Shown here one piece after another: positions 8,076-29,472 of a stretch of 64,000 bases of DNA (its first letter is position 1; every line of letters begins with the position of its first letter). The notes under the pieces were generated by a model. The model ran no database searches, was not told where the DNA came from, and saw only the letters and a list, made by a program, of their open reading frames with translations. Location: positions 192,001 through 256,000 of the IMG/VR virus record IMGVR_UViG_3300031088_000782. One strand, written 5' to 3'. This DNA is from a virus (taxonomy: Duplodnaviria > Caudoviricetes). A program made the position numbers and the translations under genes.

Positions 8076-9971
8076 TTATGCCCTATACACAAAAATTCTA
8101 TTACCAGCAGTATAAATAGGTAAGAACCCATTATCTAACATTATCTCTCTATTATTCATTTTAGTTCTGTCGAAATCATTACCAAAATCAAGACCTAATA
8201 ATCTATCTGCACCAACCTTGACAACAGAAGAATTAGAATACTTCTTTTTTGTCTTCAAATTATAATGAACCAAAATCGGGCCATTCGATTTCATTTCATA
8301 AAAACCCAAAGAATTCAAGAATATATTTTTCTTAGTAGTATGATTGAAGTCAACATAACTTACAACAGAAGAAGGTTTTGCATCTTTTAAAAATAATTGA
8401 AAAAGCTTTCCCGAAGCCCCATGAATGATATAATCATCACGAACAGCATATCTAATAAACTCATATTCATATTTGCTATCAAAACGAGATTTGCCGAAAG
8501 TAGCAACAGACATCAGTTGATCATCTTGATAAAGCCCATAACAATAAATCTGTTTTTTAGCAACACCCTGAATATGAAACCTATGCAAGAAAATGTTAGC
8601 AGTCTCCTGATCGATTCTTCGACATGTCAATTTTCGAGCAGAAAGTTTAACAACATTCTTATTTGTTTTCATATTAATCATTTTAAGAATAGCATCCTCA
8701 GTATCCCAATCATAAACCTGAATCAAAGAAACATCATTATTGTGTGCTGCCATAGCTCTTTGATAGTGGTAGTATTTCGTTGGCTTTCTGTGCTTAGAGC
8801 AATTAACTATTTTGCAATTTGAAATAATACATCCAAATGACTTGACAATATTGTGAGAAATAGTAGGATTAATGTCAATTAACAAGCTACGATCATTAAT
8901 ATTTAGATCAAACTGAAATTTACCAACAGGATATTCAAAATCTATATTATATACATCATTACAGGACTCTTTTATTAGTTGAGCAAAAGCTTTGTTTAAA
9001 TTAGAGACTTTTCTGCTTTTTTGGTTTTTCCCATTTTTTAAATTTTCAGAAAATGTTTTTTGAGCCTTAGCAACAATGTCTGAATTCAGCATAACGTTTT
9101 CAAAACCATATTTTTCAATATTTGTCTTGATTCTCTTTTCTTTAACAATGTCTGATTGATTAGGATATTCAACGCCATACTTTTCCATGACAGTTTCCAT
9201 AATCTTTTTCTTAATAATTTTAGAGCCAAAAGGATTTTTTGATCCATACTTCTCCAAATTTGTATCATCTGCGCGTTTTCTGATTTCGGGATCTTGAATA
9301 GCGTATTTAACCCCATATTTTTCAAGATTAGTTCTAACGGTCTTTTCTTTGAATTCATCAAGCATCATAGGATGTTCAACACCATACTTGTCAATATTAG
9401 CTTTAATAATCTTCTGTTTTAATTCATCAGTTGATTGAGGATTCTCTACCCCATAATTTTTTAAACTTGTCTGCTTTCTCTTTTCTTGTGCATTTTTTCC
9501 ATTAATAATTTTAGATGCACAATCACTGCTACAATATTTTCTTTTAGACAAAGGATCTGGAAAATCAAATTTATTTCCGCATTCTAAGCATTCTTTTTGG
9601 TGGATATTTGTGCAGTATTTTTGAGTTGCTGAAGTTGGAATAAATCTTGTTTCGCACAATTCGCAAACTCTTTCCTCTGCTGATTCAGAAAAAGACTTAT
9701 TTCTTAATTCCTGTTCACACTTTAATGAGCAAGTTTTTGAAACCTTATAGAATTCTTTATTGCAAATAACACAATTACGCTTTTTCTTTTGAGAGGCACC
9801 ACGACATTTAGTAGAACAAAATACTTTATCAACCTTCATAGTTGATTTTAATTCAAATTCATTATCACAAACTAAACAATTTTTAAAATGTTTTTTAGCA
9901 CAACGCTTTTTTCTTCGTTTATCAGGTGTAAAAAGATCATTACATACTTCACAACAAATCTGATATTCCAT
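8076..9971 (-). CDS. Homing-endonuclease-like protein: Cys-rich zinc ribbons, KYG repeats, Vsr/PD-(D/E)XK-like nuclease, C-terminal GNAT-like domain
   Basis: Multiple CxxC...CSxxC units; six (E/D/K)-K/N-YG repeats; FEYPVGKFQFDL...LIDINP; C-terminal YEFIRYAV...GASGKLF...SYVD...LGF. Confidence 0.75.
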   Translation of the reverse strand: MEYQICCEVCNDLFTPDKRRKKRCAKKHFKNCLVCDNEFELKSTMKVDKVFCSTKCRGASQKKKRNCVICNKEFYKVSKTCSLKCEQELRNKSFSESAEERVCELCETRFIPTSATQKYCTNIHQKECLECGNKFDFPDPLSKRKYCSSDCASKIINGKNAQEKRKQTSLKNYGVENPQSTDELKQKIIKANIDKYGVEHPMMLDEFKEKTVRTNLEKYGVKYAIQDPEIRKRADDTNLEKYGSKNPFGSKIIKKKIMETVMEKYGVEYPNQSDIVKEKRIKTNIEKYGFENVMLNSDIVAKAQKTFSENLKNGKNQKSRKVSNLNKAFAQLIKESCNDVYNIDFEYPVGKFQFDLNINDRSLLIDINPTISHNIVKSFGCIISNCKIVNCSKHRKPTKYYHYQRAMAAHNNDVSLIQVYDWDTEDAILKMINMKTNKNVVKLSARKLTCRRIDQETANIFLHRFHIQGVAKKQIYCYGLYQDDQLMSVATFGKSRFDSKYEYEFIRYAVRDDYIIHGASGKLFQLFLKDAKPSSVVSYVDFNHTTKKNIFLNSLGFYEMKSNGPILVHYNLKTKKKYSNSSVVKVGADRLLGLDFGNDFDRTKMNNREIMLDNGFLPIYTAGNRIFVYRA

Positions 9972-10049
9972 AATGAATCCTAACTAACTTATTTATATAT
10001 TGTTTACTACTATTATTATAACAATTTTAAAGGAAAGAAAGCATTAATT

Positions 10050-10169
10050 ATGAAAATAAAATCAATAAAAGAAATTGCTCCTGAACCTGCAAGATGTATT
10101 GAAGTCGATTCACCTGACCGACTTTTTGCTGCCGGAGGAGAATTTGGGAATGCTTTCGTAACTCACAAT
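10050..10169 (+). mobile_element. Intein C-fragment (blocks F and G), class-3 type
   Basis: Block F Cys (ARCIEV), block G Thr-His-Asn, +1 Ser; own ATG and AAGGAAAG RBS. Confidence 0.85.
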
Positions 10170-11198
10170 TCTGTTGTTCAAAGAAACATCATTTTCGGTG
10201 CTATTATGAGGCCGGAGAGTTGGCGCTTCCTTGGGATAGACCTGAAAAAAGTTGAACTTTCTTCCTTTCGCGCTTACTCAAATGTTGTTCTAGGTATTGC
10301 AACAGAAATCGAAGATGCGCTAACTGTTTTGCGTTTTGCTCAACAAACAATGATGAAACGTTATGCAGAGATGGAACAACTTGGAGTAAATAACTTTTTG
10401 GATCTTCCAGAAAAAGGACAAGCTTTATTGGTAATGGTTGACGAGGCTGGTGAGCTTCTTTCTCCATCGGGTGTGAAATCAGAAGAAGCTAAGGCTGAAG
10501 ATGAGCTTAAAGGCGAGGCAGCTATGATTATTGGCTCGGTAGCGCGTTTGGGAAGAGCGGCGGGAGTTCATCTTGTAATTGCCACTCAGAGGCCGGACGC
10601 CAAGATAATATCGGGCGAAACTAAGGCTAACCTTGGTGTTCGAATTAACTGTGGGCGAACAGATTCCAACGCTTCGTCAATGATTTTGGGAACTGGTGAG
10701 GGAACAAGAGTAAAGGCTAATCCTCGCGGTCGTTTATATTTGAGAATCTATGGTAGTGGTAATCATGGGCAAGGATTTTTTGCTGACCAGTCTTGGATTG
10801 ACGAATATTTGGCAAGTAAGGGATTGAACCCTGATGGGACAGAAATCAACAGTGGAAAGAAGTCTCGTTTGGCTAATGTCACAGATATGTCTCAGTTCGA
10901 AACTGGCGATTTGGATGCTCGTGAGGGCGTAGACAATTCGTCAATTATTGAGCAAATCAGAGACGAAGAGAGCGATGAGAGTTTCAATAATGTCATGAGT
11001 CAAATTGATGGAGACGAGGAAGAGGACGATGATTGGGGATTCGATGATTCTGATGATACTTCTTCAACTCAACACGATGACGGAAAACTTGGTCGACCAG
11101 AATTGGGAACAGGAGAGAAAAATCCTGATAAATTTAAGAGACCAGAAGAGTCATGGGATCTAGATCTGGAAAGTTTGATTGAAGAAAACAACGAGTAA
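10050..11198 (+). CDS. Split-intein C-fragment fused to the C-terminal half of an FtsK/SpoIIIE-type (TcpA-like) ATPase
   Basis: First 40 aa end in ...RCIEVDSPDRLF...FVTHN|S; then IDLKKVEL, Walker B LLVMVDEAGEL, GRAAGVHLVIATQRPD; Walker A absent; acidic tail. Confidence 0.85.
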   Translation: MKIKSIKEIAPEPARCIEVDSPDRLFAAGGEFGNAFVTHNSVVQRNIIFGAIMRPESWRFLGIDLKKVELSSFRAYSNVVLGIATEIEDALTVLRFAQQTMMKRYAEMEQLGVNNFLDLPEKGQALLVMVDEAGELLSPSGVKSEEAKAEDELKGEAAMIIGSVARLGRAAGVHLVIATQRPDAKIISGETKANLGVRINCGRTDSNASSMILGTGEGTRVKANPRGRLYLRIYGSGNHGQGFFADQSWIDEYLASKGLNPDGTEINSGKKSRLANVTDMSQFETGDLDAREGVDNSSIIEQIRDEESDESFNNVMSQIDGDEEEDDDWGFDDSDDTSSTQHDDGKLGRPELGTGEKNPDKFKRPEESWDLDLESLIEENNE

Positions 11199-11264
11199 TA
11201 AGCATTTTCGCAAATATTTCGGTAAAATAATAAAAGTATAGAAAGTGTTATTTGAGGAGATTGT

Positions 11265-13259
11265 ATGCGAATTTGCAAACGTTGTGATAAAGAATTCACA
11301 CCTACCAAAGTTAATCAACAAGTGTGCGATAATCCTCATTTTTCTGTGTGTGAAAATTGTGGGAAAAGCTTTTCTTGGAGTAAGAGGAAGAAAACGTGCT
11401 CTACTGTTTGCACTGCGGAATTGAGAAAGAAGAATTCAAAAACAATTTCTTGCCAATGGGAAGGGTGCAACGGTTCTTTTCCTAATAATGGACGAACAAT
11501 ATACTGCGATAAAGAGCATACAAAAACTTGTGAAAGCTGTGGAAATGAATTTACTGTTGTAAACATGAATAAAATTTCTCGTTCATGCTCTCAAAGCTGC
11601 GCATCTGCTTTATCTCATAATGATTCTTCAAGAAAAAACCGCAAAGACAACAGTTTGAAAAAATATGGAACTGAATTTGTTACTCAAGCTGATTCTGTGA
11701 AGAAAAAAATCAAAGATGTGCTTGATAATGATTCTTCTAAAGATTTTCGTATTGGTAGTAAAAACTTTTCTCAAACTATTAAAGAGAAGTACGGTGTTGA
11801 CAATGTCAGTTCTGCAGATGAAATAAAGCAGAAAAAAGTTCAATCTTCATTGTTGAAGTATGGTGTTGATAACCCAATGCAGAGCAAAGAGGTTAAAGAC
11901 AGATTCAATAAATCTATTTTTGAAAAATATAATACTGATTTTTCATCTTTGGGACATAAGTATTTCAAGAACAATAACAATAATTTCACGTCTCCTTCGC
12001 AAATTCATATTAAAAATTTTTCTGAGTGGAAAAGTTTTGACAAATGGGTTGTTGATGAATATAATAAAACAGGAAAATTGCTTAATGTCGAAGAGGTAGC
12101 TAATTATTTCAATGTGCATCCTTTAACTATCCTTGGGAAAAAGAATAAGAATTTATTACAAAAATATTTTGAAGCTTCCATTGTTTCCAAAAAAGAGAAG
12201 AAGTTTATTGAATTCGTTGAACAAAATTTTCCAGATCTTCGTTATAAGCGAAACGATAGAACTGTTATCTATCCGAAAGAGTTAGATTTCTTTTTTCCAG
12301 ATCATAATCTTGCGGTTGAGATCTCTCCTACTTCCACTCATTTCAGTTTAGATGATTCTCTTGTTGATTCGGAAATATTGTTGAATTATTCTGGATGGAG
12401 CACTCCCAAGGATTCTGATTATCATTTGCAAAAACTATTGAAATGTGAAGAAAAAGGAATTGAACTTATTACTGTCTTCGATTGGATGCCTTGGGATAAA
12501 GTTGTTGAGATGATATCCCATAAGTTGATGAATGCTTCTCGAAAGATCTATGCCCGTAAAACAAAGGTTAACAGTATTGTCAAAAACCCGAACAATAAAT
12601 TTTCGAAGAGTTTGAGAATTTTGGTAAATGATTGGCATGTTTTGGGGTTCAATTCTAGGGGCACTGATTTCTATACTTATTTGGAATATGATGATGAAGT
12701 TGTCGCTGTTGCTTGTTGGGGAAAGCCACGAACTTTGAATATTCGTTCTTTGAAGAATAAAAGCGCAGATTCCAGACAAAAAGATAATACCTATGAACTT
12801 GTCCGAATGTGTTTTAAACCGGGGTTTAGTGTTCCTGGTGGAGCCTCAAAGTTGTTGAAGAATTTTTTGAGTTATATGAAAGAGAGCAACAATCAGGTAG
12901 ATAAATTAATTACTTTCAGCGATAACGATTTGGGTTCGGGAAACATCTATTCAACTATTGGGTTTGAAATGATCAATGTCCCCCAAGCTGGAAAAAATTA
13001 TGTGAATCCTTTCTATATAAAGAACAATAGCACTGATGAGTTGTTCCGAATTAAAGATACAAGTTTGCATTTTGCTGGTGCTGACAGGTTGTTGAAAAAT
13101 TTTCCTGGTTATGAATCTGTTGGTATGGAATGTAAGTGTGCGGACGAGTTTCATGAGAATGGATCATGTTTGCCGAATAATGAGCAGATTGTTTTGTCTT
13201 ATGGGTTCTTGCCTGTTTATGACTGCGGTTATAAGAAATGGGAATATATTGTCAATTGA
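11265..13259 (+). CDS. Homing-endonuclease-like protein, same architecture as 8076..9971
   Basis: N-terminal CxxC repeats, KYG repeats, KELDFFFPDHNLAVEISPTSTH, C-terminal ELVRMCF...VPGGASKLL...TFSD...GF. Confidence 0.75.
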   Translation: MRICKRCDKEFTPTKVNQQVCDNPHFSVCENCGKSFSWSKRKKTCSTVCTAELRKKNSKTISCQWEGCNGSFPNNGRTIYCDKEHTKTCESCGNEFTVVNMNKISRSCSQSCASALSHNDSSRKNRKDNSLKKYGTEFVTQADSVKKKIKDVLDNDSSKDFRIGSKNFSQTIKEKYGVDNVSSADEIKQKKVQSSLLKYGVDNPMQSKEVKDRFNKSIFEKYNTDFSSLGHKYFKNNNNNFTSPSQIHIKNFSEWKSFDKWVVDEYNKTGKLLNVEEVANYFNVHPLTILGKKNKNLLQKYFEASIVSKKEKKFIEFVEQNFPDLRYKRNDRTVIYPKELDFFFPDHNLAVEISPTSTHFSLDDSLVDSEILLNYSGWSTPKDSDYHLQKLLKCEEKGIELITVFDWMPWDKVVEMISHKLMNASRKIYARKTKVNSIVKNPNNKFSKSLRILVNDWHVLGFNSRGTDFYTYLEYDDEVVAVACWGKPRTLNIRSLKNKSADSRQKDNTYELVRMCFKPGFSVPGGASKLLKNFLSYMKESNNQVDKLITFSDNDLGSGNIYSTIGFEMINVPQAGKNYVNPFYIKNNSTDELFRIKDTSLHFAGADRLLKNFPGYESVGMECKCADEFHENGSCLPNNEQIVLSYGFLPVYDCGYKKWEYIVN

Positions 13260-13366
13260 GAAAAATCGCTAGTTTAAATTTGCGTAATATTTTTAATGTT
13301 AATTAAGCGTTTGATAATTAGATTAAACAGTTTCACGTTTTTAATACTGAAAAGAGGAGCTTTGCT

Positions 13367-14317
13367 ATGAATTTTGATTATTTTGATAAATCTTTGGGTT
13401 GTTTTCGTGGGTTGGCTGTCGGTGATGCACTGGGAGCCCCCGTAGAGTTTTCTCAGCGTGGTTCTTTTGTTCCTGTCACAAGTTATCGACCTTCTACTTT
13501 TCACGGCTTAAATGCGGGAGAATGGACTGATGATACTATTATGGCTCTTTGTTTGGCCGAGTCGATGATTGAGAGTAACGGATATGATTCTTTTTCAGTA
13601 ATGTCTTCTTATGTGAAATGGTACAAAGAAGGATATAATTCTCCCAAAGGAACTTGTTTTGACATTGGGAATCAAACAAGCACTGCTTTGGATATTTTCA
13701 TTGATTCACCTTTTTTAGATAAAAGTTCACAAACTTCTTCAGCAGGAAATGGAACAATTATGAGATTAGCTCCTGCATCTATTGTGTCTTTAAATTTGTC
13801 GGATGAAGATTCTAAAAAACTTTTTACTGTGAGTGCTTTGGATACACACAACAACAGTGAGACGATTGAGTCGACTATTCTTTTTGGGTTTATCCTCAAG
13901 GGGTTATTGAGCGGGAAAGATAAAAATGAATCTTTTGATTATGCAGTAGACTTGACAAATAACTATAATAATGTTGCAGACAATGTTCTTTCTGTAACTG
14001 ATGATACTGTTGGTAACAGTGGATATGTTGTTGTTTCTTTGGCTGCTGCTTGGTGGGCTTTCTCTACGACTGATAGCTTTAAAGATGCTGTTTTGAAGGC
14101 GGTGAATCTTGGCGGTGACGCTGACACAATTGCAGCTATTACAGGGCAATTGGCAGGATCTTTCTATGGAGATTCAGGCATTGATGAAATACTTAAATTA
14201 GGGCTTTATCAAACTGAACGTTTTGAACGATTAGCGAAATCTTTGTTGGAAGTAGAGCATGGTGTTATCAGGACAAGATACGAAAACGATACAGTAATTG
14301 CTGATAATTTTTTATAA
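13367..14317 (+). CDS. ADP-ribosylglycohydrolase (DraG/ARH family)
   Basis: GLAVGDALG, WTDDT, GNGTIMR, NLGGDADTIAAITGQLAG. Confidence 0.92.
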   Translation: MNFDYFDKSLGCFRGLAVGDALGAPVEFSQRGSFVPVTSYRPSTFHGLNAGEWTDDTIMALCLAESMIESNGYDSFSVMSSYVKWYKEGYNSPKGTCFDIGNQTSTALDIFIDSPFLDKSSQTSSAGNGTIMRLAPASIVSLNLSDEDSKKLFTVSALDTHNNSETIESTILFGFILKGLLSGKDKNESFDYAVDLTNNYNNVADNVLSVTDDTVGNSGYVVVSLAAAWWAFSTTDSFKDAVLKAVNLGGDADTIAAITGQLAGSFYGDSGIDEILKLGLYQTERFERLAKSLLEVEHGVIRTRYENDTVIADNFL

Positions 14318-14432
14318 AATATGGCAAAAGATTGTTGATAAAATAGTTTGTATAAAGTTTTGAAATAAATTATTAAATGAATTTATTTTTTAACTTTTTG
14401 GTAATGTTTATGAATAGATATACAACTATGTA

Positions 14433-15359
14433 ATGAAAACAATTTCTAAGGAAGCATATATGGCTGAAAATAATGTTGATGAGAGTAAAAATCCTAAACC
14501 TGCAAAAGTGGTGGTTGTTGTCAAAAATTATCCAATGAGAAATAGGGTTGCTTCTATTTTCTCTTTGCCGTTTTTAGTTTTAGCTTCTGCTATTTTTTCT
14601 GTTCCGCTTTTGCTTTTTGGAAAATTGGGGCTTTCTGCTGCTTTGACTTTGACTGTCGTATCTGAGATTATTATTGTTATTTTGGCATTGAATTATATTG
14701 ATCAATTGAAAAATTGGGCAAAAAAATTACGGTTAAATAATTTCAAATGGAGTAATGTGTTTATCGGCATTGGGTTTGGCTCTGTCATGTATTTCTTGCT
14801 TCAAGGGTTGGCAATAGGCATGAACTATTTGGGGATGCCTATCGTGTCGAGTGATACAAGTGTTGCTATTACTTCTTCAACTGGTTTGTCTTATGTTATT
14901 GCTTCCTTTATTCTTGCTCCTTTCATAGTTCCATTTGTTGAGGAGTTGTTTTTCAGAGGGTATGTTCTTGGGTTCTTTTATGACTCTTTCGAAGTTAAAG
15001 AAAAAATGCTTAAAGAATCTAAGAAAAAAATAAAAAATATTAAAAAACAAGAAAAAGATGACAGCGAAAAATTCGATGAAGAATCTAATTCTATCGTTTT
15101 TACTGAGGAAGAATTGAAAAATAAGAGCAGAAAAAATTGGGCTGTGTTTTGGTCTTTGTTGGTTTCTTCAATTGTTTTCAGCTTAGCTCATTTTCAGGGT
15201 TTATCAGATTCGACAGATATTTTCTTGTTGATTTGGATTGCGTTTATGGCATGTGTTAATGGTATTCTGTTTTTGAAAACGAAAAGTATTTACACATCTT
15301 TCTTTTTGCATATGACTTATAATGGATTGACTCTTCTTGTCCCCCTTCTTCTTGGCTAA
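14433..15359 (+). CDS. CPBP (CAAX protease/Abi) intramembrane metalloprotease
   Basis: Multiple TM helices, EELFFRG, FSLAHF, HMTYN. Confidence 0.88.
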   Translation: MKTISKEAYMAENNVDESKNPKPAKVVVVVKNYPMRNRVASIFSLPFLVLASAIFSVPLLLFGKLGLSAALTLTVVSEIIIVILALNYIDQLKNWAKKLRLNNFKWSNVFIGIGFGSVMYFLLQGLAIGMNYLGMPIVSSDTSVAITSSTGLSYVIASFILAPFIVPFVEELFFRGYVLGFFYDSFEVKEKMLKESKKKIKNIKKQEKDDSEKFDEESNSIVFTEEELKNKSRKNWAVFWSLLVSSIVFSLAHFQGLSDSTDIFLLIWIAFMACVNGILFLKTKSIYTSFFLHMTYNGLTLLVPLLLG

Positions 15360-21747: not shown

Positions 21748-22887
21748 ATGGTGGATAGAGAGAATAAAGTGAAGTATAAAATATGCGATCAGTGTGGATA
21801 TTCAACTTCGAAAATCTTTGTGAAGTATTGTCATTCACAGTATTTTTATAAATGTGTTATTTGTAATTCTGATTTTATTCGTGAATGTAAAGCAAATACC
21901 CCTCAGACATGCTCAAAGAGCTGTAGTAGCAGATTAGTAAGATTAAATACAGGGAAAAAGAATGTAGTTAAATGCGAAATTTGCGAAGAATCTTTTCAAG
22001 GTCAATCAGCTAATTCTAAATACTGCAATAAAATAATAATTGTAAATTGTAATGGATTCGATAGTGATTTTGAAAGAAAATGCAATAACGAAAATGGAAG
22101 TTATTGTTCTACAAGTTGTCGAAATAAATATATGAGAAAAAACTTATACAAAATTAATTTCACAAAGAAATGCAAAAATTGCGGAAATGAATTTTACCCT
22201 ACTACAAGCGGACAAAGATTTTGCGATAATAATCATTATAGAAAATGTGAATATTGTGAAGATGATTATATTGTAAAAAACAACACTAACAAATATAATA
22301 ATTCTAAATTTTGCAGCAATTCATGCTCAACTTTTTCTCAGATGGATTCTCAATTTGATAAGAATTTGCTGCATGATTATAGAAATATTAACGAATGGGC
22401 GAAAAATTTTAAAAAAGAAAACAAAAGAAAGCCAAAACTTGCTGATTTTTTAATTTACTTCAATCTACAAAAGATACCTTCTTACGCTGACAGGTCTCTA
22501 TTTTCAAGATCTATTGATTCAAAAATAGAATTAATAGTTTTATATTATTTAAAATATATAGGACTTCATACTAATATAATTAGACGATATAGGAGAAGGA
22601 TTAATGGGAAATTATTAGAGATTGATATATTCTTTCCTGAATATAATTTTGGTTTCGAGATTCAAGATTTTGCTACTCACTGCAAAGAGAAAAGCGAAAA
22701 CTTATCAAAATTTGGAAGCCCTATGAAAGATGAAAGATATCATAATATGAAAAAAGATTATTTTAAAAGTGTTGGGATAAATATATATGAGTTATGGGAA
22801 GATGAAATTTACGATAAATCATTTCAATCTATTGTTGATGAAGTGTGTAAAAATATACCAAAAGACAACAAATGTAAAGTAAGTTGA
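21748..22887 (+). CDS. Homing-endonuclease-like protein: zinc ribbons plus Vsr-like nuclease
   Basis: About 8 CxxC / CSxxC units; LEIDIFFPEYNFGFEIQD...H; C-terminal IYELWEDE. Confidence 0.75.
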   Translation: MVDRENKVKYKICDQCGYSTSKIFVKYCHSQYFYKCVICNSDFIRECKANTPQTCSKSCSSRLVRLNTGKKNVVKCEICEESFQGQSANSKYCNKIIIVNCNGFDSDFERKCNNENGSYCSTSCRNKYMRKNLYKINFTKKCKNCGNEFYPTTSGQRFCDNNHYRKCEYCEDDYIVKNNTNKYNNSKFCSNSCSTFSQMDSQFDKNLLHDYRNINEWAKNFKKENKRKPKLADFLIYFNLQKIPSYADRSLFSRSIDSKIELIVLYYLKYIGLHTNIIRRYRRRINGKLLEIDIFFPEYNFGFEIQDFATHCKEKSENLSKFGSPMKDERYHNMKKDYFKSVGINIYELWEDEIYDKSFQSIVDEVCKNIPKDNKCKVS

Positions 22888-22960: not shown

Positions 22961-25096
22961 ATGGCTGATAAAGAACAAAATAGTAGCTATACAGCAGACG
23001 ATATCACAAAACTTGAATATCCATACAATGTTATAAAAAGACCGTCGATGTACTTAGGCGAAAGAGGATCACAACAAACGGTCGGTACTCGTGAGATCAT
23101 TGATAATGCTGTTGGAGAAAGCGTTAAAGGGTTCGCTAATCGCGTTAAGGTTACTTTCTGCAAAGACAAATCAGTCATTGTTCAAGATAACGGTAGAGGA
23201 CTTCCGACAGATACAAACAAAAAGACAGGGCTTAACGGAATTATTTTAACAATGGCAACACTTCACGCTGGAGCTAATTTTAGCAATAATGTAGCTGTTG
23301 GAAAAGCTGGTGCTGGGTTGAACGGTGTGGGAGGATCAGTCGTTACTGGGCTTTCAAAACGACTTGATGCCATAGTTTACAAGGGAGGAAAGAAATTTCA
23401 ACTGAGTTTCCAAGATGGATTTGCTGGTACTTTTAGTGGAGACACTCCAGAAGGAACATTCACTCGTTCAGATAAGATTATTGAAACAAAAGATGAACGT
23501 TCGGCAAAAGAAAAAAAGCTTTTTAAGCAAGGAACAATAATTCATTTTTGGTATAACGAAGAAAGATTCCCATCAGATGAAGCCATAGACATTGACGATC
23601 TTGTAGATAGGCTGAAATACACGGCCTATATTGTCCCTAAGCTAAACATTGATGTTGTTGATGAAAATAGACAATATGAAGACGGAACAAATTACAACTG
23701 GCACTTTTACAGTGAGCATGGTCTTGAAGAAATGGTAGAAGTTACTGCTCCTGATGAAAAGCTTCCCGGAACAGAATCAAAAGGTGACACATTCATTGAA
23801 AAAGGAATTTATCACCTTCAAACACAAGGTCACTATAATGAAGTCACAACAGATGAAAGCGGCAAAATAGCCGAAATTAAACGAACTGTCACCGCTGAAC
23901 TTGCTTTCCGTTATGGAACAGGGTATGAAAAGACTTTGGCAAGTTTCGTCAATACCATTCACACTCATTTGGGTGGAGTGCATGAGCAAGCTTTGGAAAA
24001 AGCTATTGTTGATAGTTTCGGAGCAAGAATGTCTTCAATGCGCGGTATCCTTACAGCCAAAGATGAACCACCTATCATTGATGATTTTTTTGAAGGCATG
24101 ACAGTTGCTCTATCCATTAATGTTCCTGAACCGCAGTTCGTTGGGCAGCAGAAAGATAAGCTGTCTGGTCCGGAAGTTCGTAAAGCATTGACAAAGGCTC
24201 TTACCGAATCTTTGACTAAATTTGCCAATGATTCAAGCAATCAGAAGTTTTTGAAACCAATGTTTGAAAAGGTTGCGCAAGCGTCTAAGAATCGCCGTGA
24301 AGCAGCTGTTGCAAAACTTGCTAAACGTAAAAACAGTCAGGTTTCTTCTTCCGCTATGCCAGCTAAATTGTCTGATTGTGATTTAATTGGAACCGAAGAA
24401 TCTGAATTGTTGATTTGCGAGGGTGACTCTGCAAAAGGAACAATTGTAAAAGCTCGTGATGCTACATATCAGGCTGTTATCCCTATTCGTGGAAAGATTC
24501 TCAATTCTTACAAAGCTGATATGAAACAAATTATGAACAACTCTGAAATCACCGATATTGCGAAAGCTCTTGGTGCAGGATTTGGTAAAGATTTTGATGT
24601 TGAGCGTATTCGTTATGGTAAAGTTTTGTTTGCCGCTGACGCTGATGTTGATGGTTCTCACATTAATATACTTCTTTACACAGTATTCAACAGAATGTTC
24701 AAGAAAATGATTGAAGAAGGAAGAGTTTACCAAACTGTTCCCCCTCTTTTCGAAATTACTTCAGGAACAGGAAGAAATCAGAAAGTTGAATATGTTTCGA
24801 ATGAAGCAGACTTGAATCAGGTTGTGAAAAAATTGGAAAAGTCTGGGAAAAAGTATAAAGTAGAGCGTAATAAAGGTCTTGGAGAGATGACACCGGAGGC
24901 TTTTTCTGAAACTGTGCTTGATCCTGAAACTCGTTCTCTACGCAGAATTACTTTGGAAGATGTTGAAAAAGCAGAACAGGCTTTGATTCTGACTATGGGA
25001 GATAACTCGCAAGAGAGAAAAGATTTCATTGGAGATAACTTCCAGACTGCTATCGACTCTGGTCTTGTTGAAGGGTTTGAATCAGGCAACGAGTAA
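22961..25096 (+). CDS. gyrB: Type IIA topoisomerase B subunit (GyrB/ParE-like)
   Basis: KRPSMYLG, REIIDN, VQDNGRGLP, GHKL lid, TOPRIM EGDSA, PIRGKILN, DADVDG, KGLGEM; gyrase versus topo IV not resolved. Confidence 0.92.
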   Translation: MADKEQNSSYTADDITKLEYPYNVIKRPSMYLGERGSQQTVGTREIIDNAVGESVKGFANRVKVTFCKDKSVIVQDNGRGLPTDTNKKTGLNGIILTMATLHAGANFSNNVAVGKAGAGLNGVGGSVVTGLSKRLDAIVYKGGKKFQLSFQDGFAGTFSGDTPEGTFTRSDKIIETKDERSAKEKKLFKQGTIIHFWYNEERFPSDEAIDIDDLVDRLKYTAYIVPKLNIDVVDENRQYEDGTNYNWHFYSEHGLEEMVEVTAPDEKLPGTESKGDTFIEKGIYHLQTQGHYNEVTTDESGKIAEIKRTVTAELAFRYGTGYEKTLASFVNTIHTHLGGVHEQALEKAIVDSFGARMSSMRGILTAKDEPPIIDDFFEGMTVALSINVPEPQFVGQQKDKLSGPEVRKALTKALTESLTKFANDSSNQKFLKPMFEKVAQASKNRREAAVAKLAKRKNSQVSSSAMPAKLSDCDLIGTEESELLICEGDSAKGTIVKARDATYQAVIPIRGKILNSYKADMKQIMNNSEITDIAKALGAGFGKDFDVERIRYGKVLFAADADVDGSHINILLYTVFNRMFKKMIEEGRVYQTVPPLFEITSGTGRNQKVEYVSNEADLNQVVKKLEKSGKKYKVERNKGLGEMTPEAFSETVLDPETRSLRRITLEDVEKAEQALILTMGDNSQERKDFIGDNFQTAIDSGLVEGFESGNE

Positions 25097-25106
25097 AACT
25101 AAAATT

Positions 25107-25172
25107 AATTATTAAAAATATGGAAAAGTTATTATACAACATTTTAATAACTTTTCCATATTTTTAATAATT
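25107..25172. repeat. Long perfect inverted repeat after gyrB
   Basis: 28-bp arms aattattaaaaatatggaaaagttatta / taataacttttccatatttttaataatt, 10-nt loop. Confidence 0.85.
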
Positions 25173-25245
25173 TTTAGTCATTTAACCTTTTGTTTTGATA
25201 GAATATTGTTATACATACTTTATAACGGAATCGGCGGCGATAAAA

Positions 25246-26775
25246 ATGAAAAATCTTTATGCTAGAAAAACTATTGTAAAGAAGATTGAAAATTTACAAG
25301 CACAAGAATTTGTTGAAGAACATCATTCTCAAGGTTCATCAAAAGGAACTTTTAGCAAAAATTCGATTGGAATGTTTTTCGAGGATGAATTGATTGCTGT
25401 TGCTCAATTCTGTTCACCAAGAACTCCTCTTAAAAAAGAAAAATATAACACTGAATTATTGAGATTGTGTTTTAAAGAAAATATTCGTGTTGTAGGAGGG
25501 GCTTCTAAACTTATTAAATATTATATTGAAAAATACAATCCATCTGACATTTTTACTTATCAAGACACTACTGGTGAAAACACAAATATATATGAAAATT
25601 GTGGATTCACATTAGTATCTCAGGATAAAAAGAAACAATATTTAATAGCTCCTGGAAAAAGAGTTTCAACCGCTAATAGAAAAGATAGGGAGATATTTTC
25701 TACTTCTTATGTTGCTCAATACGGACCTGACAGGATTTTAGGGACTAAATTAGGTGAGGTATTCGATAGTGATGGTTCACGAAAAACAAATATCCAATTA
25801 TTTAAAGATCTTGGCTGGCATATAGAGGAAACCACTGGAGATAAAGTGTATGAGTGGTTTAATCCTAACCTAAGTTTTTACACATATAAAATAACCGCTA
25901 CTGATTCCAATAAATACTACTATGGAGTTTCGAGTATAAAAATGCCTTTCAATAAGGTTACAGAAAACGATTGTGAAAACGATGGGTATTTTGGTAGCGG
26001 TGGAAACACTTTAAAAAACAACAAATTCAAAAACTGGAAGAAAAAGCACAAGAAAAATCTTAAAAAAGAGATTATTCAAATATTTGAAAAGAAGAATGTT
26101 GCTTATAATGCAGAAAGAAAACTAATTGGAGATCTATGGGAAACAGATAAATTGTGTTTAAATAGTGCTGCTGGTGGCGTTTATACAGGATTCAATAAAG
26201 GATGGAGAGAGAATGTTGATCTGAAGAGATGCCCTACTCATGGTATTACTAAACATCGAGGGAATGCTTGCTACAAATGTTTCATGAATAAATTAGTCAA
26301 TACTCAGGTGTGCTCTATTCATGGTGAAACTAAATTCCAAGGCAACTCTTGTTCTAAGTGTTCAGTTGACAAAACTTTCAGTGAAAAAGTGTGCGAAATT
26401 CATGGATTAACTAAGTTTTCAGGAAATCATTGCAGAAAATGTACTGTCTCAAAAACAGTGAATATGAAAGAATGCTCTATTCATGGTTTGACAAAGCATC
26501 AGGGAGACGTATGCAATTCTTGTAATGCTTTGAGTAGTATTTCTGTGAAAAACTGCCCCACTCACGGAGAAACTAAGTTCACTGGGGACAAGTGCCGCAA
26601 ATGCATTTCATCTAAAAACAACAACATGAAAGAATGCTCGATTCATGGACTTTCTAATTATCGTGGATCAAAATGTATGAAGTGCAGTGCGCAGAAACGT
26701 AAACATAATAACAATCTTCACGATAACAAGGCAGAATCTTTGTGTTATTTATGTCTGGGTATCTCCATAGATTAA
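25246..26775 (+). CDS. GNAT-like domain, GIY-YIG endonuclease and six CHCC zinc-finger repeats
   Basis: LYARK...ELLRLCF...VVGGASKLI...TYQD; YTYKITAT...KYYYG...GYFGSG...E...N; 6 x CxxHGxTK(F/H)xGxxCxxC; start taken at ATG 25246. Confidence 0.8.
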   Translation: MKNLYARKTIVKKIENLQAQEFVEEHHSQGSSKGTFSKNSIGMFFEDELIAVAQFCSPRTPLKKEKYNTELLRLCFKENIRVVGGASKLIKYYIEKYNPSDIFTYQDTTGENTNIYENCGFTLVSQDKKKQYLIAPGKRVSTANRKDREIFSTSYVAQYGPDRILGTKLGEVFDSDGSRKTNIQLFKDLGWHIEETTGDKVYEWFNPNLSFYTYKITATDSNKYYYGVSSIKMPFNKVTENDCENDGYFGSGGNTLKNNKFKNWKKKHKKNLKKEIIQIFEKKNVAYNAERKLIGDLWETDKLCLNSAAGGVYTGFNKGWRENVDLKRCPTHGITKHRGNACYKCFMNKLVNTQVCSIHGETKFQGNSCSKCSVDKTFSEKVCEIHGLTKFSGNHCRKCTVSKTVNMKECSIHGLTKHQGDVCNSCNALSSISVKNCPTHGETKFTGDKCRKCISSKNNNMKECSIHGLSNYRGSKCMKCSAQKRKHNNNLHDNKAESLCYLCLGISID

Positions 26776-26815
26776 AACTCGCCAATAATGAAGTTTAGCG
26801 CACATCTGATGTTTT

Positions 26816-26863
26816 AATGTGCGGGAATTCTTTCACAAACGAATATAAGAATTCCCGCACATT
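26816..26863. terminator. Bidirectional hairpin between convergent genes
   Basis: 17-bp arms aatgtgcgggaattctt / aagaattcccgcacatt. Confidence 0.75.
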
Positions 26864-26875
26864 TTATTATGTTTA

Positions 26876-27346
26876 TTAAAGTTTGCGATTAATCCTCACA
26901 TCATCTTCTGTGTCATAAACAGCGTAGAATGATTTTTCATCAGAATTGGTTTTTCTCCATTCGACAATATATTTTTCAATATTTTCATCAAATTTTACGG
27001 AAACACATTCAGCATAAGTGTTTGCATAATCGGAAGATCCTGGTTTATCCAAATACCTTGCATAATCTCCTACTGTAAGATCAGAAACGCTGATGCTTTG
27101 AAAAATAGATTTCTCAAAGTAAGGTAACTCCCCTGATTTTTTTGACAATTTTACATATCTTCTGAAAGACAATTCGTTTTTGATTTCACACATATAACAA
27201 TCCCAATCAATGTGCATATATTCATCTTCTTCATTGTCATACTCGTAATTATGTTCAATTACTTCGCCAGCTGTTGTTGATTCATTTTTGACAATATAAA
27301 TCAATTCGTCATCACTGAAGTTATTGAATTTCTCGTTGCTTGGCAT
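26876..27346 (-). CDS. Hypothetical acidic protein
   Basis: ORF with AGGTG RBS before ATG 27346; no motif. Confidence 0.65.
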   Translation of the reverse strand: MPSNEKFNNFSDDELIYIVKNESTTAGEVIEHNYEYDNEEDEYMHIDWDCYMCEIKNELSFRRYVKLSKKSGELPYFEKSIFQSISVSDLTVGDYARYLDKPGSSDYANTYAECVSVKFDENIEKYIVEWRKTNSDEKSFYAVYDTEDDVRINRKL

Positions 27347-27467
27347 TTTTTCACCTATCATCGGTTTATAAAATTTTATTCATCGTTCATATTATCAGAA
27401 TTTTTCGCAACAGTCAAGAAAAGAAATATTGATAAAATGAGCCGTGTAGAGATATTATTTTTTGTAA

Positions 27468-27488
27468 ACAATTTGTTAAAATGATATA
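27468..27488 (+). repeat. 21-bp direct repeat, left copy
   Basis: acaatttgttaaaatgatata, identical to 29472..29492. Confidence 0.9.
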
Positions 27489-27528
27489 AGAAATTGTTGT
27501 TTTTTTTGAATTTTCTGGGAGCTTGTAG

Positions 27529-29472
27529 ATGAGAATATATGCGAGAAAAACCTTTATTGAAGAGATTGAATATGGTGTTGCCCAAAAATTTGTTTCTGAA
27601 AATCATATGCAAAAAGAATCAAAACACAATGGAAAAATTCTGTCTTTTGGATTGTTTCATGAAAATAATTTAGTAGGAGTTGCTCAATTCTGCTATCCAC
27701 GAACACCGGCTAAAAAACGTGAATACACTACTGAGCTTTTAAGATTGTGCTTCAAGAAAAACATTTATATTGTCGGTGGCGCATCTAAACTTATTAAATA
27801 TTACATAAATTTACATAACCCTACTGACATTTTTACTTATCAAGATACTACCGGCGAGAATACTGATGTTTATGAGCAGTGCGGGTTTATTTTGAGATCA
27901 ATTGAAAAGAAAAAGCAATATCTTGTCAAAAATGGATTAACTATTCATCAAGGACATAATAATAGCGCAGAAAGAGAAGAGTATTATACTATTTCTCAAG
28001 TAGTCAATCGTGGCCCCGACTCCTTGCTTGGAACAAAACTTGGAGAACAATTTCATAAAAAGCCTGATGGAACATTATCAAACAAAAGAAAAACAAATAT
28101 TGAGCTATTTATTGATTTAGGGTGGCATATAGAGGAAACCACTGGAGATAAAATATATGAGTGGTTTAATCCTAATTTAAGTTTCTACACTTACAGAATA
28201 ACTGCTTCTGATTCTGACAAATACTACTATGGTGTTCGATCTATTAAAATCCCTTTTGATGAATTAACTATTAAAGACTGTTTGAAAGATGATTATATGG
28301 GTAGCGGAGGAAGAAAATTTGCTACATGGAGAAATAAACACAAAGCTAATCTTAGAAAAAATATTATCGAAATGTTCCCAAAGAAGTTTATGGCATACAA
28401 CAATGAGAAAATATTAGTTGGCGATTCTTATTTAACAGATCCTTTGTGTTTGAACAGTTCAGAAGGTGGTGTTCAATATGAGAAAAAATTTAGCGAAGGA
28501 AGAAATAAATTTTATCTTAGTGAATGTCAAACTCATGGATTAGTCAAACATATTAATGAAAAATGCGTTACTTGTGCTGTCTATAAAAACATTAGCTATC
28601 AAATGTGCGAAATTCATGGATTAACTAAGTTTAGAGGAGCTTTCTGCTCTAAGTGCGTTTCCGCAAAAAACCTTAAAATAGAAGTGTGTAGAGTTCACGG
28701 GGAAACAAAGCATATTAACAAAAAATGTTTAAAATGCGCTAATCAATCTTCTTTCATCGAAAAATTGTGCGATAAGCATGATCTTGTTGTTCATCATGGA
28801 AATGTATGCTTAAAATGCGTTAAAGAAAATTCTATCACTATGCAAATATGCCTAACGCATGGTGAAACAAAGCATGTTGGAGAAAAATGCTTTAAATGCT
28901 TCACAAGTGAAAGTTTCTCAACACGATTTTGCAAAATTCATGGTGAAACTGTATTTCGTGGAGACAATTGCGAAAAATGTAAAAATGATAATTTGGTCAG
29001 TGTAAAAACATGCCCTACGCATGGTGAGGTTAAGCATATCGGAGATAAATGCTATAAGTGCCGAAAAAACGTTTTTAATATTCAGATGTGTGATATTCAT
29101 GGTGAAACAAAACACCAGAAAGGTTCCTGTTTGCAGTGTACTAACGACAAGAAAATAACAATTAAAATTTGCTCTACTCACGGAGAAACAAAACATTTTG
29201 GAAATACTTGCGGAAAGTGCAATTCTTTGAAAATGTTCTATTTTGACACCTGTTCAGTTCATGGAGAAACGAAGTTCAAAAAGAATGAATGCGTCAAGTG
29301 TAAAGCACAGAAAGCTTTTGTTATTAAAGTTTGTGAAATTCACGGTGAGACTAAATTCAAAGGAAAATCTTGTTGTCAATGTGTTAGCGAAAAGACAGCT
29401 CACAAAAGATGGCATAAAGAAAAACAAAAACAAGGCTGTGTTTATTGCGAAAAGATTATTCAATCAGTTTGA
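27529..29472 (+). CDS. GNAT-like domain, GIY-YIG endonuclease and eleven CHCC zinc-finger repeats (paralog of 25246..26775)
   Basis: Same domain order; near-identical DNA around GWHIEETTGDK.YEWFNPNLSFYTY; 11 x 27-aa repeats. Confidence 0.8.
   Translation: MRIYARKTFIEEIEYGVAQKFVSENHMQKESKHNGKILSFGLFHENNLVGVAQFCYPRTPAKKREYTTELLRLCFKKNIYIVGGASKLIKYYINLHNPTDIFTYQDTTGENTDVYEQCGFILRSIEKKKQYLVKNGLTIHQGHNNSAEREEYYTISQVVNRGPDSLLGTKLGEQFHKKPDGTLSNKRKTNIELFIDLGWHIEETTGDKIYEWFNPNLSFYTYRITASDSDKYYYGVRSIKIPFDELTIKDCLKDDYMGSGGRKFATWRNKHKANLRKNIIEMFPKKFMAYNNEKILVGDSYLTDPLCLNSSEGGVQYEKKFSEGRNKFYLSECQTHGLVKHINEKCVTCAVYKNISYQMCEIHGLTKFRGAFCSKCVSAKNLKIEVCRVHGETKHINKKCLKCANQSSFIEKLCDKHDLVVHHGNVCLKCVKENSITMQICLTHGETKHVGEKCFKCFTSESFSTRFCKIHGETVFRGDNCEKCKNDNLVSVKTCPTHGEVKHIGDKCYKCRKNVFNIQMCDIHGETKHQKGSCLQCTNDKKITIKICSTHGETKHFGNTCGKCNSLKMFYFDTCSVHGETKFKKNECVKCKAQKAFVIKVCEIHGETKFKGKSCCQCVSEKTAHKRWHKEKQKQGCVYCEKIIQSV

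What the first reader, a model, noticed from the sequence alone, without database searches (positions are those of the whole stretch)
8076..29472. GNAT-like domain fused to two different nuclease families in four genes: possible single-chain restriction-modification or self-protecting homing elements
Seen: the same ~200-aa domain (ARK...F...H.Q...YGL...VAV..F..PR...EL.R.CF...V.GGASKL...TY.D...G..Y...GF...G[AP]D.LLG...N) lies C-terminal to a Vsr-like nuclease in 8076..9971 and 11265..13259, and N-terminal to a GIY-YIG nuclease in 25246..26775 and 27529..29472. Known: phage Mu Mom is a GNAT-fold DNA-adenine modifying enzyme; similar proteins are often labelled homing endonucleases. Inference: the domain is shuffled independently of nuclease type, which fits a modification or protection partner for the nuclease rather than a passive DNA-binding domain.
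Basis: partly seen in the sequence, partly recalled or inferred. Interest (0 to 1): 0.75.

Follow-up and report, generated by a model that had tools for sequence, protein, structure and literature searches.

The report
Homing endonucleases carrying a Mom-like domain
A huge phage carries at least seven selfish DNA-cutting genes, from two unrelated nuclease families, each fused to a domain related to phage Mu's DNA-modifying enzyme Mom; one fusion type is already published, the other appears undescribed, and the role of the Mom-like domain has not been tested.

Summary
All four ORFs share a ~200-aa domain. It is a GNAT fold, and for the GIY-type protein its best solved match is phage Mu Mom (PDB 8bv8).

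- **Nucleases.** Two genes place the domain after a Vsr-like "EDxHD" nuclease. These are Hef-like homing endonucleases, a known family. Two place it before a Seg-like GIY-YIG nuclease followed by 6 or 11 zinc fingers of 27 aa.
- **Copy number.** The 309-kb record holds three more Mom fusions, plus nuclease-only relatives.
- **Active site.** The equivalents of Mom R111, S124, D149, H58 and Y159 are kept in more than 87% of 368 family members. R151, essential in Mu Mom, is not kept.
- **Selection.** dN/dS for the Mom domain is about 0.1, similar to the nuclease domains.
- **Mobility.** The genes sit beside topoisomerase II, FtsK-like, primase and RNR genes, and related phages gain, lose or swap them.

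They are therefore mobile homing-endonuclease genes. That the Mom domain modifies DNA to protect the carrier genome is an untested inference.

Iyer et al. 2021 already described jumbo-phage Mom-REase fusions and predicted restriction-modification-like action. This scan has noted the family before in other genomes. I found no paper on the GIY-YIG fusion, so I rate it a new variant of a known kind.

The parts
8076..9971 (-). Hef-like gene P0001 (631 aa). Zn ribbons 9507-9971; DUF7487 'KYGV' repeats 9072-9503; Vsr-like EDxHD nuclease 8652-9008; Mom-like GNAT 8079-8651, the most divergent copy (GGASK changed to HGASGK, Tyr159 equivalent changed).
11265..13259 (+). Hef-like gene P0002 (664 aa). Zn ribbons 11265-11624; DUF7487 repeats 11637-11942; Vsr-like EDxHD nuclease 12183-12539; Mom-like GNAT 12540-13256.
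25246..26775 (+). Mom-GIY-YIG gene P0003 (509 aa from the ATG). Mom 25246-25866; GIY-YIG 25867-26229; six 27-aa CxxHG-x9-CxxC fingers 26230-26685.
27529..29472 (+). Mom-GIY-YIG gene P0004 (647 aa). Mom 27529-28173; GIY-YIG 28174-28503; eleven 27-aa zinc fingers 28525-29382.
27468..27488 (+). Copy 1 of an exact 21-bp direct repeat, 41 nt before the P0004 ATG. It duplicates the gyrA-upstream promoter-like sequence.
29472..29492 (+). Copy 2 of the 21-bp repeat, starting at the last base of the P0004 stop codon and 39 nt before the gyrA-like ATG. This is the ancestral copy, since it is conserved upstream of gyrA in L004, which lacks P0004. Together the two copies bracket a 2004-bp unit.
21748..22887 (+). 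P0007: Zn ribbons plus a Vsr-like nuclease (22516-22878) with no Mom domain. The slot holds a different gene in relative L003.
33040..34428 (+). A second nuclease-only relative (462 aa). The Vsr-like domain at 34084-34425 ends the protein and its catalytic motifs are intact.
10050..11198 (+). FtsK/SpoIIIE-like ATPase gene flanked by P0001 and P0002. It is the probable homing target or neighbour. In relative L008 the same gene is broken after codon 144 by about 5.3 kb that carries two Mom-nuclease genes.
22961..25096 (+). Topoisomerase II GyrB-like gene, upstream flank of the Mom-GIY-YIG pair.
29531..31987 (+). Topoisomerase II GyrA-like gene, downstream flank of the Mom-GIY-YIG pair.
26876..27361 (-). 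161-aa ORF of no known family between the two Mom-GIY-YIG genes. It is present in L003 and absent, together with P0004, from L004.

Best explanation
These are free-standing homing-endonuclease genes of two classes. One class is Hef-like: DNA-binding Zn ribbons and repeats, then a Vsr-like EDxHD nuclease, then Mom. The other is Seg-like: Mom, then a GIY-YIG nuclease, then an array of 27-aa zinc fingers. In both, a Mom-family GNAT domain has been added directly onto the nuclease end of a canonical homing-endonuclease layout. The result is a compact nuclease-Mom unit tethered to DNA by the finger array.

Shown here: the identity of the domains, the mobility of the genes, retention of most of the Mom active site, and purifying selection on all domains.

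Inferred: the Mom domain is an active acyl- or aminoacyl-transferase that modifies an adenine in or near the nuclease's target. DNA of the carrier phage would then enter the next cell already resistant, while unmodified DNA of co-infecting relatives is cut and repaired by copying the gene. That would make each gene a mobile, single-chain, restriction-modification-like homing element.

The acyl donor could be an aminoacyl-tRNA, as for Mu Mom, or an acyl-CoA. The GxG/A loop typical of CoA-using GNATs is present here and absent from Mu Mom.

I put about 0.9 on 'homing-endonuclease genes with a genuine Mom-family domain'. The 0.4 given below is for the whole mechanism, including site protection.
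For: **Fold**
- The P0004 1-335 model (pLDDT 92.8) has Mu Mom 8bv8 as its top PDB hit, E 1.6e-8.
- The P0002 305-664 model (pLDDT 91.5) matches GNATs at Z 11-13.4. Mom scores Z 12.0 with 148 aligned residues, among the longest alignments in the list.

**Active site**
- HMM alignment to Mu Mom shows the equivalents of H58, E108, R111, S124, D149 and Y159 kept in 148-166 of 169 GIY-class proteins and 174-199 of 199 REase-class proteins.
- R111, S124 and D149 are needed for Mu Mom activity (PMC13219725).

**Selection**
- dN/dS for Mom is 0.08-0.15. The nuclease domains give 0.06-0.21 and the DNA-binding arrays 0.03-0.14.

**Nucleases**
- The first class has I-Bth0305I (3r3p) as best PDB sequence hit. 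Taylor et al. place Hef in that EDxHD family (PMC3239194).
- The second class matches Seg-like GIY-YIG structures.

**Niche**
- Every copy flanks a DNA-metabolism gene: FtsK-like, topoisomerase II B and A, primase, RNR.

**Mobility**
- L004 has one gene, not two, between gyrB and gyrA. L003 has an extra gene there and a swapped neighbour.
- L008 has the FtsK-like gene fractured by two Mom-nuclease genes.
- A 21-bp duplication brackets P0004.
- dS of the elements (0.45-1.7) exceeds dS of gyrA (0.19) against the same relative.

**Module behaviour**
- Between the window and L003, the finger array of P0003 is 97% identical but its Mom-GIY block only about 70%. Mom and the nuclease therefore travel as one block.

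**Layout**
- There is no linker between Mom and the nuclease in either class, and the two-domain models have pTM 0.83 and 0.87.

**Precedent**
- In a T4-type coliphage a Hef-like gene sits between genes 23 and 24.
- Hef of phage U5 is reported to cleave nrdB next to its own gene (PMC2988022; PMC3322345).
Against: - No modification, cleavage or homing was measured here.
- R151, whose alanine mutant abolishes Mu Mom activity, is Thr/Ser in the GIY class and mostly Asp in the REase class. Y59 and the dimer residue W48 are also not kept. The chemistry may therefore differ or be lost.
- Nuclease-only paralogues with intact catalytic motifs coexist in the same genome and in relatives. The nuclease does not strictly need a fused protector.
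- EDxHD and Seg homing endonucleases in general work without Mom.
- P0001's Mom motif is degenerate.
- To my knowledge (not checked here), momylated adenine has not been reported in bulk nucleoside analyses of phages rich in Hef-like genes. That would fit only rare, site-specific marks.
Confidence: 0.4

Rival explanations
1. Genome-wide restriction-modification-like weapon, as Iyer et al. 2021 proposed. The Mom domains modify many adenines across the phage genome to block host restriction enzymes. The fused nucleases degrade unmodified host or competitor DNA. Homing-like mobility is secondary.
For: This is a published prediction for jumbo-phage Mom-REase fusions, with several copies per genome in PA5oct (PMC7824862). 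This genome has seven copies. Most of the active site is kept. Mu Mom itself is a broad anti-restriction enzyme (PMC13219725).
Against: Long DNA-binding arrays of 6-11 fingers imply long, rare sites, which are poor for degrading host DNA. Placement next to conserved replication genes, presence/absence among close relatives, a fractured target gene and an insertion footprint are hallmarks of homing. Homologues are the Hef-like family, whose founder cuts beside its own gene.
Confidence: 0.2
2. Non-catalytic accessory domain. The Mom-derived fold has been retained as a DNA clamp, adenine-flipping recognition module or dimerisation module that positions the nuclease. It performs no acyl transfer.
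For: R151 (essential in Mu Mom), Y59 and W48 are not conserved. Three of the four window copies fall below the Pfam Mom threshold. Homing endonucleases commonly accrete DNA-binding modules. The domain abuts the nuclease on the side opposite the finger array, where a second DNA contact would be useful. Mu Mom binds dsDNA and is modelled to flip the target adenine.
Against: Near-invariance of the R111, S124, D149, H58 and Y159 equivalents and of the GGASK loop across 368 diverse proteins is hard to explain without ligand binding or catalysis. dN/dS is as low as for the nuclease.
Confidence: 0.2
3. The GNAT domain acts on something other than DNA, such as tRNA, the nuclease itself or a host protein. 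It would regulate or time the nuclease rather than mark DNA.
For: GNATs acylate very diverse substrates. The REase-class profile matches GCN5-type acetyltransferases by sequence, E 2e-4, with the CoA-loop GxG/A signature aligned. Some members hit Acetyltransf_1.
Against: The closest solved relative of the GIY-class domain is the DNA-modifying Mom. Viral Mom proteins are also among the nearest viral folds. The domain has become fixed next to two unrelated DNases and to no other partner in my sample.
Confidence: 0.1

Closest known systems
Hef of T-even phage U5 and 'Hef-like' free-standing homing endonucleases (Campylobacter CP220/CPt10/IBB_35, Acinetobacter Acj9/KARL-1, Dickeya LIMEstone, PA5oct)
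   Same: P0001 and P0002 match these proteins over 73-87% of their length and fall in phrog_3339 'homing endonuclease'. A T4-type homologue retrieves proteins named Hef-like, including Acj9's. The layout is the same (DNA-binding N-terminus, Vsr-like nuclease, Mom-like C-terminus), and so is the niche beside conserved genes.
   Different: I could not obtain U5 Hef itself, so the link runs through annotations, Taylor et al. 2011 and an unchecked scan note. The N-terminal modules differ here (DUF7487 or DUF4379). Papers on Hef do not discuss the Mom-like domain.
Phage Mu Mom (PDB 8bv8), a Gly-tRNA-dependent N6-adenine DNA modifying GNAT
   Same: It is the best solved structural match of the GIY-class domain. 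The equivalents of H58, E108, R111, S124, D149 and Y159 are shared. A helical insertion lies between the last GNAT strands in the model.
   Different: Sequence identity is 14-16%. R151, Y59 and W48 are not kept. The Mu loop NSESR is replaced by GGASK, which looks like the CoA loop of ordinary GNATs. The domain is fused to a nuclease rather than standing alone under Com control.
Jumbo-phage Mom-REase fusions described by Iyer, Anantharaman, Krishnan, Burroughs and Aravind 2021 (PMC7824862)
   Same: The fusion is the same (Mom plus a restriction-endonuclease-fold DNase), there are several copies per jumbo phage, and the predicted logic is modification plus restriction.
   Different: That paper does not mention homing endonucleases, Vsr or GIY-YIG. 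Here the genes are shown to be mobile, and a second nuclease class is involved.
I-Bth0305I and the EDxHD (Vsr-like) homing endonucleases of 'fractured genes' (Taylor et al. 2011, PMC3239194)
   Same: It is the best PDB sequence match of the nuclease profile, with the catalytic Asp column aligned. Relative L008 shows a fractured FtsK-like gene, with intein-like extensions, that holds such genes.
   Different: I-Bth0305I has NUMOD/HTH modules and no Mom domain.
Seg-type GIY-YIG homing endonucleases of T4 (SegA-G, I-TevI)
   Same: The fold matches and Pfam SegE_GIY-YIG gives sub-threshold hits. The catalytic domain lies N-terminal to the DNA-binding part. The position between topoisomerase II genes is the same kind of site that such genes occupy in T4-type phages.
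   Different: There is an extra N-terminal Mom domain. The DNA-binding part is a periodic array of 27-aa CxxHG-x9-CxxC fingers. The conserved Arg of the motif was not located.

Membership tests
Mom family (Pfam PF25680; Mu Mom-type GNAT) | GNAT fold with Mu Mom among the closest solved structures | tested here: met
   P0004 model: 8bv8 ranks first, E 1.6e-8. P0002 model: GNATs at Z 11-13.4, Mom at Z 12.0 with 148 aligned residues.
Mom family (Pfam PF25680; Mu Mom-type GNAT) | Score over the Pfam gathering threshold (27.1 bits) | tested here: inconclusive
   P0004 scores 35.6 bits and passes. P0002 (25.0), P0003 (22.4) and P0001 (15.6) do not. In the six-frame genome search, 4 of 6 places pass. 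32 of 48 REase-class relatives match at E<=0.01.
Mom family (Pfam PF25680; Mu Mom-type GNAT) | Residues needed for Mu Mom activity: R111, S124, D149 | tested here: met
   Equivalents are present in five of the six copies checked, P0002 to P0006. In P0001 the Ser is shifted by one position. Across 368 family members they are kept in 161/169 and 199/199, 158/169 and 174/199, and 148/169 and 177/199.
Mom family (Pfam PF25680; Mu Mom-type GNAT) | R151, essential in Mu Mom | tested here: not met
   Thr/Ser in the GIY class. In the REase class it is Asp in 108 proteins and Arg in only 27.
Mom family (Pfam PF25680; Mu Mom-type GNAT) | Transfer of glycine from Gly-tRNA to N6 of adenine in dsDNA | not testable with these tools
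   This needs biochemistry. The donor may differ, because the GxG/A CoA-type loop is present.
EDxHD / Vsr-like homing endonucleases (Hef-like) | Vsr-like nuclease domain with the conserved Glu, Asp and His catalytic residues | tested here: met
   Profile A6 has 3r3p (I-Bth0305I) as its best PDB hit, E 7.5e-4, with the Asp column aligned. The conserved Glu, Asp and His columns are seen in all copies. The fold was not searched on its own, because the GNAT domain filled the lists.
EDxHD / Vsr-like homing endonucleases (Hef-like) | Free-standing gene beside a conserved gene, variably present in related genomes | tested here: met
EDxHD / Vsr-like homing endonucleases (Hef-like) | Site-specific cleavage near its own locus, and homing | not testable with these tools
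   Reported for U5 Hef, but only through secondary citations. The primary paper is not held.
GIY-YIG homing endonucleases (Seg-like) | GIY-YIG fold | tested here: met
   BFVD matches to GIY-YIG_SegABCDEFG and Seg-like proteins: rmsd 1.8-2.4 A over about 100 columns, 31-33% identity, E 7.5e-6. The model shows the beta-beta-alpha-alpha-beta-alpha order.
GIY-YIG homing endonucleases (Seg-like) | Motif residues: Tyr of GIY, Tyr-x-Gly of YIG, Arg, Glu, Asn | tested here: inconclusive
   Tyr/Tyr-Tyr-Gly, Glu80 and Asn96 (domain numbering) are invariant or nearly so in 34 sequences. The Arg was not identified. Pfam hits are below threshold.
Classical single-chain restriction-modification enzymes (Type IIG/IIC) | SAM-dependent methyltransferase domain fused to the nuclease, in a cellular defence role | tested here: not met
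   The modification-type domain is a GNAT, not a methyltransferase. The genes lie in a phage at homing sites. The resemblance is one of logic only.

The most novel reading that the evidence does not exclude
A homing endonuclease that carries its own immunity. A Mom-type acyl- or aminoacyl-transferase is rigidly joined to the nuclease and steered by a modular zinc-finger array. It hypermodifies one adenine at the enzyme's target, so the carrier phage keeps an intact, conserved target sequence yet is not cut, while unmodified relatives are cut and converted. This would be the first hypermodification-based self-protection in homing endonucleases. It would have evolved on two unrelated nuclease scaffolds, and would be a natural, targetable, site-specific DNA acylation tool.
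Probability: 0.3. Interest if true: 0.75.

Novelty: new variant of a known kind. Interest (0 to 1): 0.45.

Why it matters
Hef-like genes are among the commonest selfish genes of large phages. In my searches, more than 8,000 protein clusters at 50% identity matched this domain. At least 3,829 proteins matched one Hef-like query. Half of each such protein is a Mom-like domain whose role nobody has tested.

Mu Mom has now been shown to use Gly-tRNA to modify adenine in dsDNA (PMC13219725). That makes the question directly testable: do these fusions write a site-specific DNA mark, and does the mark give immunity?

The same domain became fixed on a second, unrelated nuclease. It evolves under the same constraint as that nuclease and moves with it as one block. 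This argues that nuclease and Mom work together.

If the fusions do write a site-specific mark, they would explain how free-standing homing endonucleases avoid cutting their own genome. They would also offer a finger-array-guided DNA-modifying and DNA-cutting scaffold.

Tried and rejected
- **megablast of 8000-30000 against GenBank phages:** no match.
- **The search for related loci with the GyrA-like protein in viral contigs:** nothing confirmed. I used the look-up of encoding contigs on homologues instead.
- **PDB sequence searches:** profiles A1, A2 and A7 gave only chance hits such as histone H3, an antibody and penicillin acylase. Mom was found only by fold, and GIY-YIG only by fold plus weak Pfam hits.
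- **pdb_via_wide on the Vsr+Mom model:** the list was filled by GNATs, so the nuclease part was not tested by structure.
- **hhalign of A2 and A3 against the single Mu Mom sequence:** weak (E 2.5e-4 and 5.7e-3), and the two alignments disagreed by four residues at the S124 helix. I took the Ser-to-Ser register from the HMM alignment. This register is an inference.
- **Papers not held:** Sandegren et al. 2005 and Iyer et al. 2009. One literature search returned only noise.
- **P0288 look-up:** not on record.
- **Idea rejected, free shuffling:** the tree shows essentially one GIY-class clade. Sampling was biased towards this genome's relatives, and the root is a single distant outgroup.
- **Idea rejected, decaying pseudo-domains:** dN/dS is about 0.1.
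- **Not run:** a dimer prediction for the Mom domain, because no claim in this report depends on it.

Full report
**Where the window lies.** The window is bases 192001-256000 of a 309.5-kb IMG/VR virus record. The same proteins are on record on a 681,645-bp contig. Relatives lie on contigs of 0.3-0.83 Mb. This is a huge phage. GC content is about 30-39%.

**The observation.** The four ORFs exist as stated.
- A four-way alignment of the shared segment has 24 invariant columns.
- BLASTP between a Vsr-type and a GIY-type copy gives E 1e-10 over that segment alone.
- The two Vsr-type proteins align end to end at 25% identity, E 6e-42. The two GIY-type proteins align at 53% identity, E 1e-173.

**What the shared domain is.**
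- Pfam Mom (PF25680) hits all four copies, but only P0004 passes the gathering score.
- PHROGs files the proteins under 'homing endonuclease', 'HNH endonuclease' and, for P0004, 'Mom-like DNA modification protein'.
- An AlphaFold2 model of P0004 1-335 (pLDDT 92.8) has the crystal structure of Mu Mom, 8bv8, as its best PDB match (E 1.6e-8). Ordinary GNAT acetyltransferases follow.
- The model of P0002 305-664 (pLDDT 91.5) matches GNATs at Z 11-13.4. Mom scores Z 12.0 with 148 aligned residues.
- The REase-class profile also matches GCN5 by sequence, E 2e-4, with its GGASK loop on the CoA-binding GxG/A loop.

**The active site.** Silva et al. 2026 showed that Mu Mom transfers glycine from Gly-tRNA to N6 of adenine in dsDNA. 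They also showed that R111, S124, D149 and R151 are required, with H58, Y59, Y159 and W48 contributing (PMC13219725). I aligned Mu Mom to a family HMM and tallied 368 fusion proteins.
- Kept in roughly 88-100% of proteins: the equivalents of H58, E108, R111, S124, D149 and Y159.
- Not kept: R151, Y59 and W48.
- P0001 is the most degenerate copy.
- Against orthologues in related contigs, dN/dS of the Mom domain is 0.08-0.15. The nucleases give 0.06-0.21 and the DNA-binding arrays 0.03-0.14.

The domain is therefore maintained by selection and probably binds a ligand or catalyses a reaction. Its chemistry need not be that of Mu Mom.

**The nucleases.**
- A profile of the first nuclease has I-Bth0305I (3r3p) as its best PDB sequence hit, E 7.5e-4. 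I-Bth0305I is the prototype of the Vsr-like EDxHD homing endonucleases, and Taylor et al. explicitly place phage Hef proteins in that family (PMC3239194).
- tblastn of P0002 finds 369 phage records, annotated 'Hef', 'Hef-like homing endonuclease' or 'homing endonuclease'. They include Campylobacter, Acinetobacter, Yersinia, Dickeya and Escherichia phages and PA5oct.
- The second nuclease matches Seg-type GIY-YIG viral models, rmsd 1.8 A over 100 columns. It gives sub-threshold SegE_GIY-YIG and GIY-YIG Pfam hits.
- Behind the GIY-YIG domain lie 6, 11 and 9 fingers of exactly 27 aa, of the form CxxHG-x9-CxxC, in P0003, P0004 and P0005.
- No GenBank phage record covers more than about a quarter of P0004. 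In metagenomes, however, 233 proteins match the Mom+GIY-YIG part (residues 1-330), and those listed cover 81-100% of it. One BFVD entry aligns over both domains.

**Copy number and architecture.**
- The genome search with Pfam Mom finds six places.
- The two outside the window are P0005 (Mom, GIY-YIG, 9 fingers) and P0006 (DUF4379 ribbons, Vsr-like nuclease, Mom).
- My family HMM finds a seventh, directly upstream of P0006.
- Two window genes, 21748-22887 and 33040-34428, have the Vsr-like nuclease with intact motifs but no Mom domain.
- Among 508 fetched proteins the architectures are 315 vsr-mom, 168 mom-giy and 19 Mom alone, which are probably mostly fragments.
- In both classes Mom abuts the nuclease with no linker, on the side away from the DNA-binding array.
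- In a tree of the Mom domains, 155 of 157 GIY-class domains form one clade nested among REase-class domains. The GIY-YIG fusion therefore looks like a single ancient recombination, not repeated shuffling.

**Mobility.**
- Every copy flanks a DNA-metabolism gene: an FtsK-like ATPase (P0001, P0002), topoisomerase II B and A subunits (P0003, P0004, P0007), primase (P0005) and ribonucleotide reductase (P0006 and its neighbour).
- Between gyrB and gyrA the window has two Mom-GIY-YIG genes. L004 has one. L003 has two plus an FtsK-like gene. The slot upstream of gyrB holds unrelated genes in different relatives.
- P0004 is bracketed by an exact 21-bp direct repeat, 2004 bp apart. The downstream copy is the conserved gyrA-upstream sequence also seen in L004.
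- In L008 the FtsK-like gene is broken after codon 144, just past its Walker-B-like VMVDEAGE segment. The break is about 5.3 kb and holds two Mom-nuclease genes. The two gene halves carry extensions that look like split-intein pieces. This is the 'fractured gene' arrangement of EDxHD elements.
- Synonymous divergence of the elements is well above that of gyrA against the same relative.
- The finger array of P0003 is 97% identical to its L003 counterpart, while the Mom-GIY block is about 70% identical. That indicates modular exchange with Mom and the nuclease moving together.
- In a T4-type coliphage a Hef-like gene sits between genes 23 and 24.

**Interpretation.** The genes are free-standing homing-endonuclease genes. 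What the Mom domain does is not known.
- The reading I favour is site-directed adenine modification that protects the carrier genome. DNA packaged in the previous cycle would arrive marked, and unmarked relatives would be cut. I put about 0.4 on the whole mechanism.
- This agrees in logic with the restriction-modification prediction of Iyer et al. 2021 for jumbo-phage Mom-REase fusions. That paper does not mention homing, Vsr or GIY-YIG.
- Against my reading stand the missing R151 and the intact nuclease-only paralogues.
- From memory only, since the paper was not available: Sandegren et al. 2005 reported that Hef cuts its own phage's DNA in vitro as well as DNA lacking the gene. That would fit a need for protection in vivo.

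**Prior notes of this scan.** Other agents reported Hef-like genes with a Mom-like domain, and GNAT + GIY-YIG + 27-aa finger proteins, in other genomes. They also reported the 21-bp repeat and FtsK split inteins in this genome. I re-tested the repeat and the finger period here.

**Verdict.** The REase-Mom fusion is known. The Mom-GIY-YIG-finger fusion is a new variant. The functional idea is plausible, already published in part, and now directly testable.

Noticed in passing
L008:2378-3157 and L008:7996-8865 (relative contig), matching window 10050-11198: The FtsK-like gene is split after codon 144 into a 259-aa and a 289-aa gene, about 5.3 kb apart. The N-piece carries a 115-aa extension. The C-piece starts with about 45 extra residues ending in ...THN just before the resumed FtsK sequence, which looks like a split intein. 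Two Mom-nuclease genes and a 187-aa ORF lie between the halves.
   Followed up: partly
window 27468-27488 and 29472-29492: An exact 21-bp direct repeat brackets P0004 (0.03 matches with up to 3 mismatches expected by chance). The downstream copy is the conserved gyrA-upstream, promoter-like sequence also present in L004, which lacks P0004.
   Followed up: yes
window 26876-27361 (-): A 161-aa ORF with no Pfam or PHROG match lies between the two Mom-GIY-YIG genes. It is conserved in L003 (156 aa) and missing, together with P0004, from L004. It may be part of the cassette or a partner gene.
   Followed up: no
L002:1417-3123 (genome C1:123416-125122): A seventh Mom-fusion gene (four DUF4379 ribbons, Vsr-like nuclease, Mom) sits directly upstream of P0006 and next to the RNR large-subunit gene. 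The Pfam Mom model missed it. My family HMM found it at E 1.3e-24, matching only HMM positions 2-142.
   Followed up: partly
window 25246-26775 versus L003:8001-9542: These are mosaic orthologues. The zinc-finger array is 97% identical, but the Mom and GIY-YIG parts are only 69-71% identical. A recombination breakpoint seems to lie between the nuclease and the array.
   Followed up: partly
L008:11897-14053 versus window 17452-18429: The Cas4-like PD-(D/E)XK exonuclease is 325 aa in the window. In L008 it is 718 aa with a weak LAGLIDADG_3 hit, which suggests an intein insertion in the relative.
   Followed up: no
L004:1805-3109: An IS605 OrfB/TnpB-type gene sits among several DUF4379 nuclease genes upstream of gyrB in the 727-kb relative. 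This is one more mobile element in the same hotspot.
   Followed up: no
whole record: IMG/VR labels the 309.5-kb record a provirus. Its proteins are on record on a 681,645-bp contig, and close relatives lie on 727-828-kb contigs with the same gene order. The whole contig may be one huge phage genome rather than a prophage in a cell.
   Followed up: no
window 34568-40939 (+): A 2123-aa ORF lies just downstream of the region studied. I did not examine it.
   Followed up: no
window 13367-14317 and 14433-15359: An ADP-ribosylglycohydrolase gene and a CAAX/Rce1-like protease gene follow P0002. L008 has the protease gene, but no ADP-ribosylglycohydrolase gene was called at the matching place.
   Followed up: no
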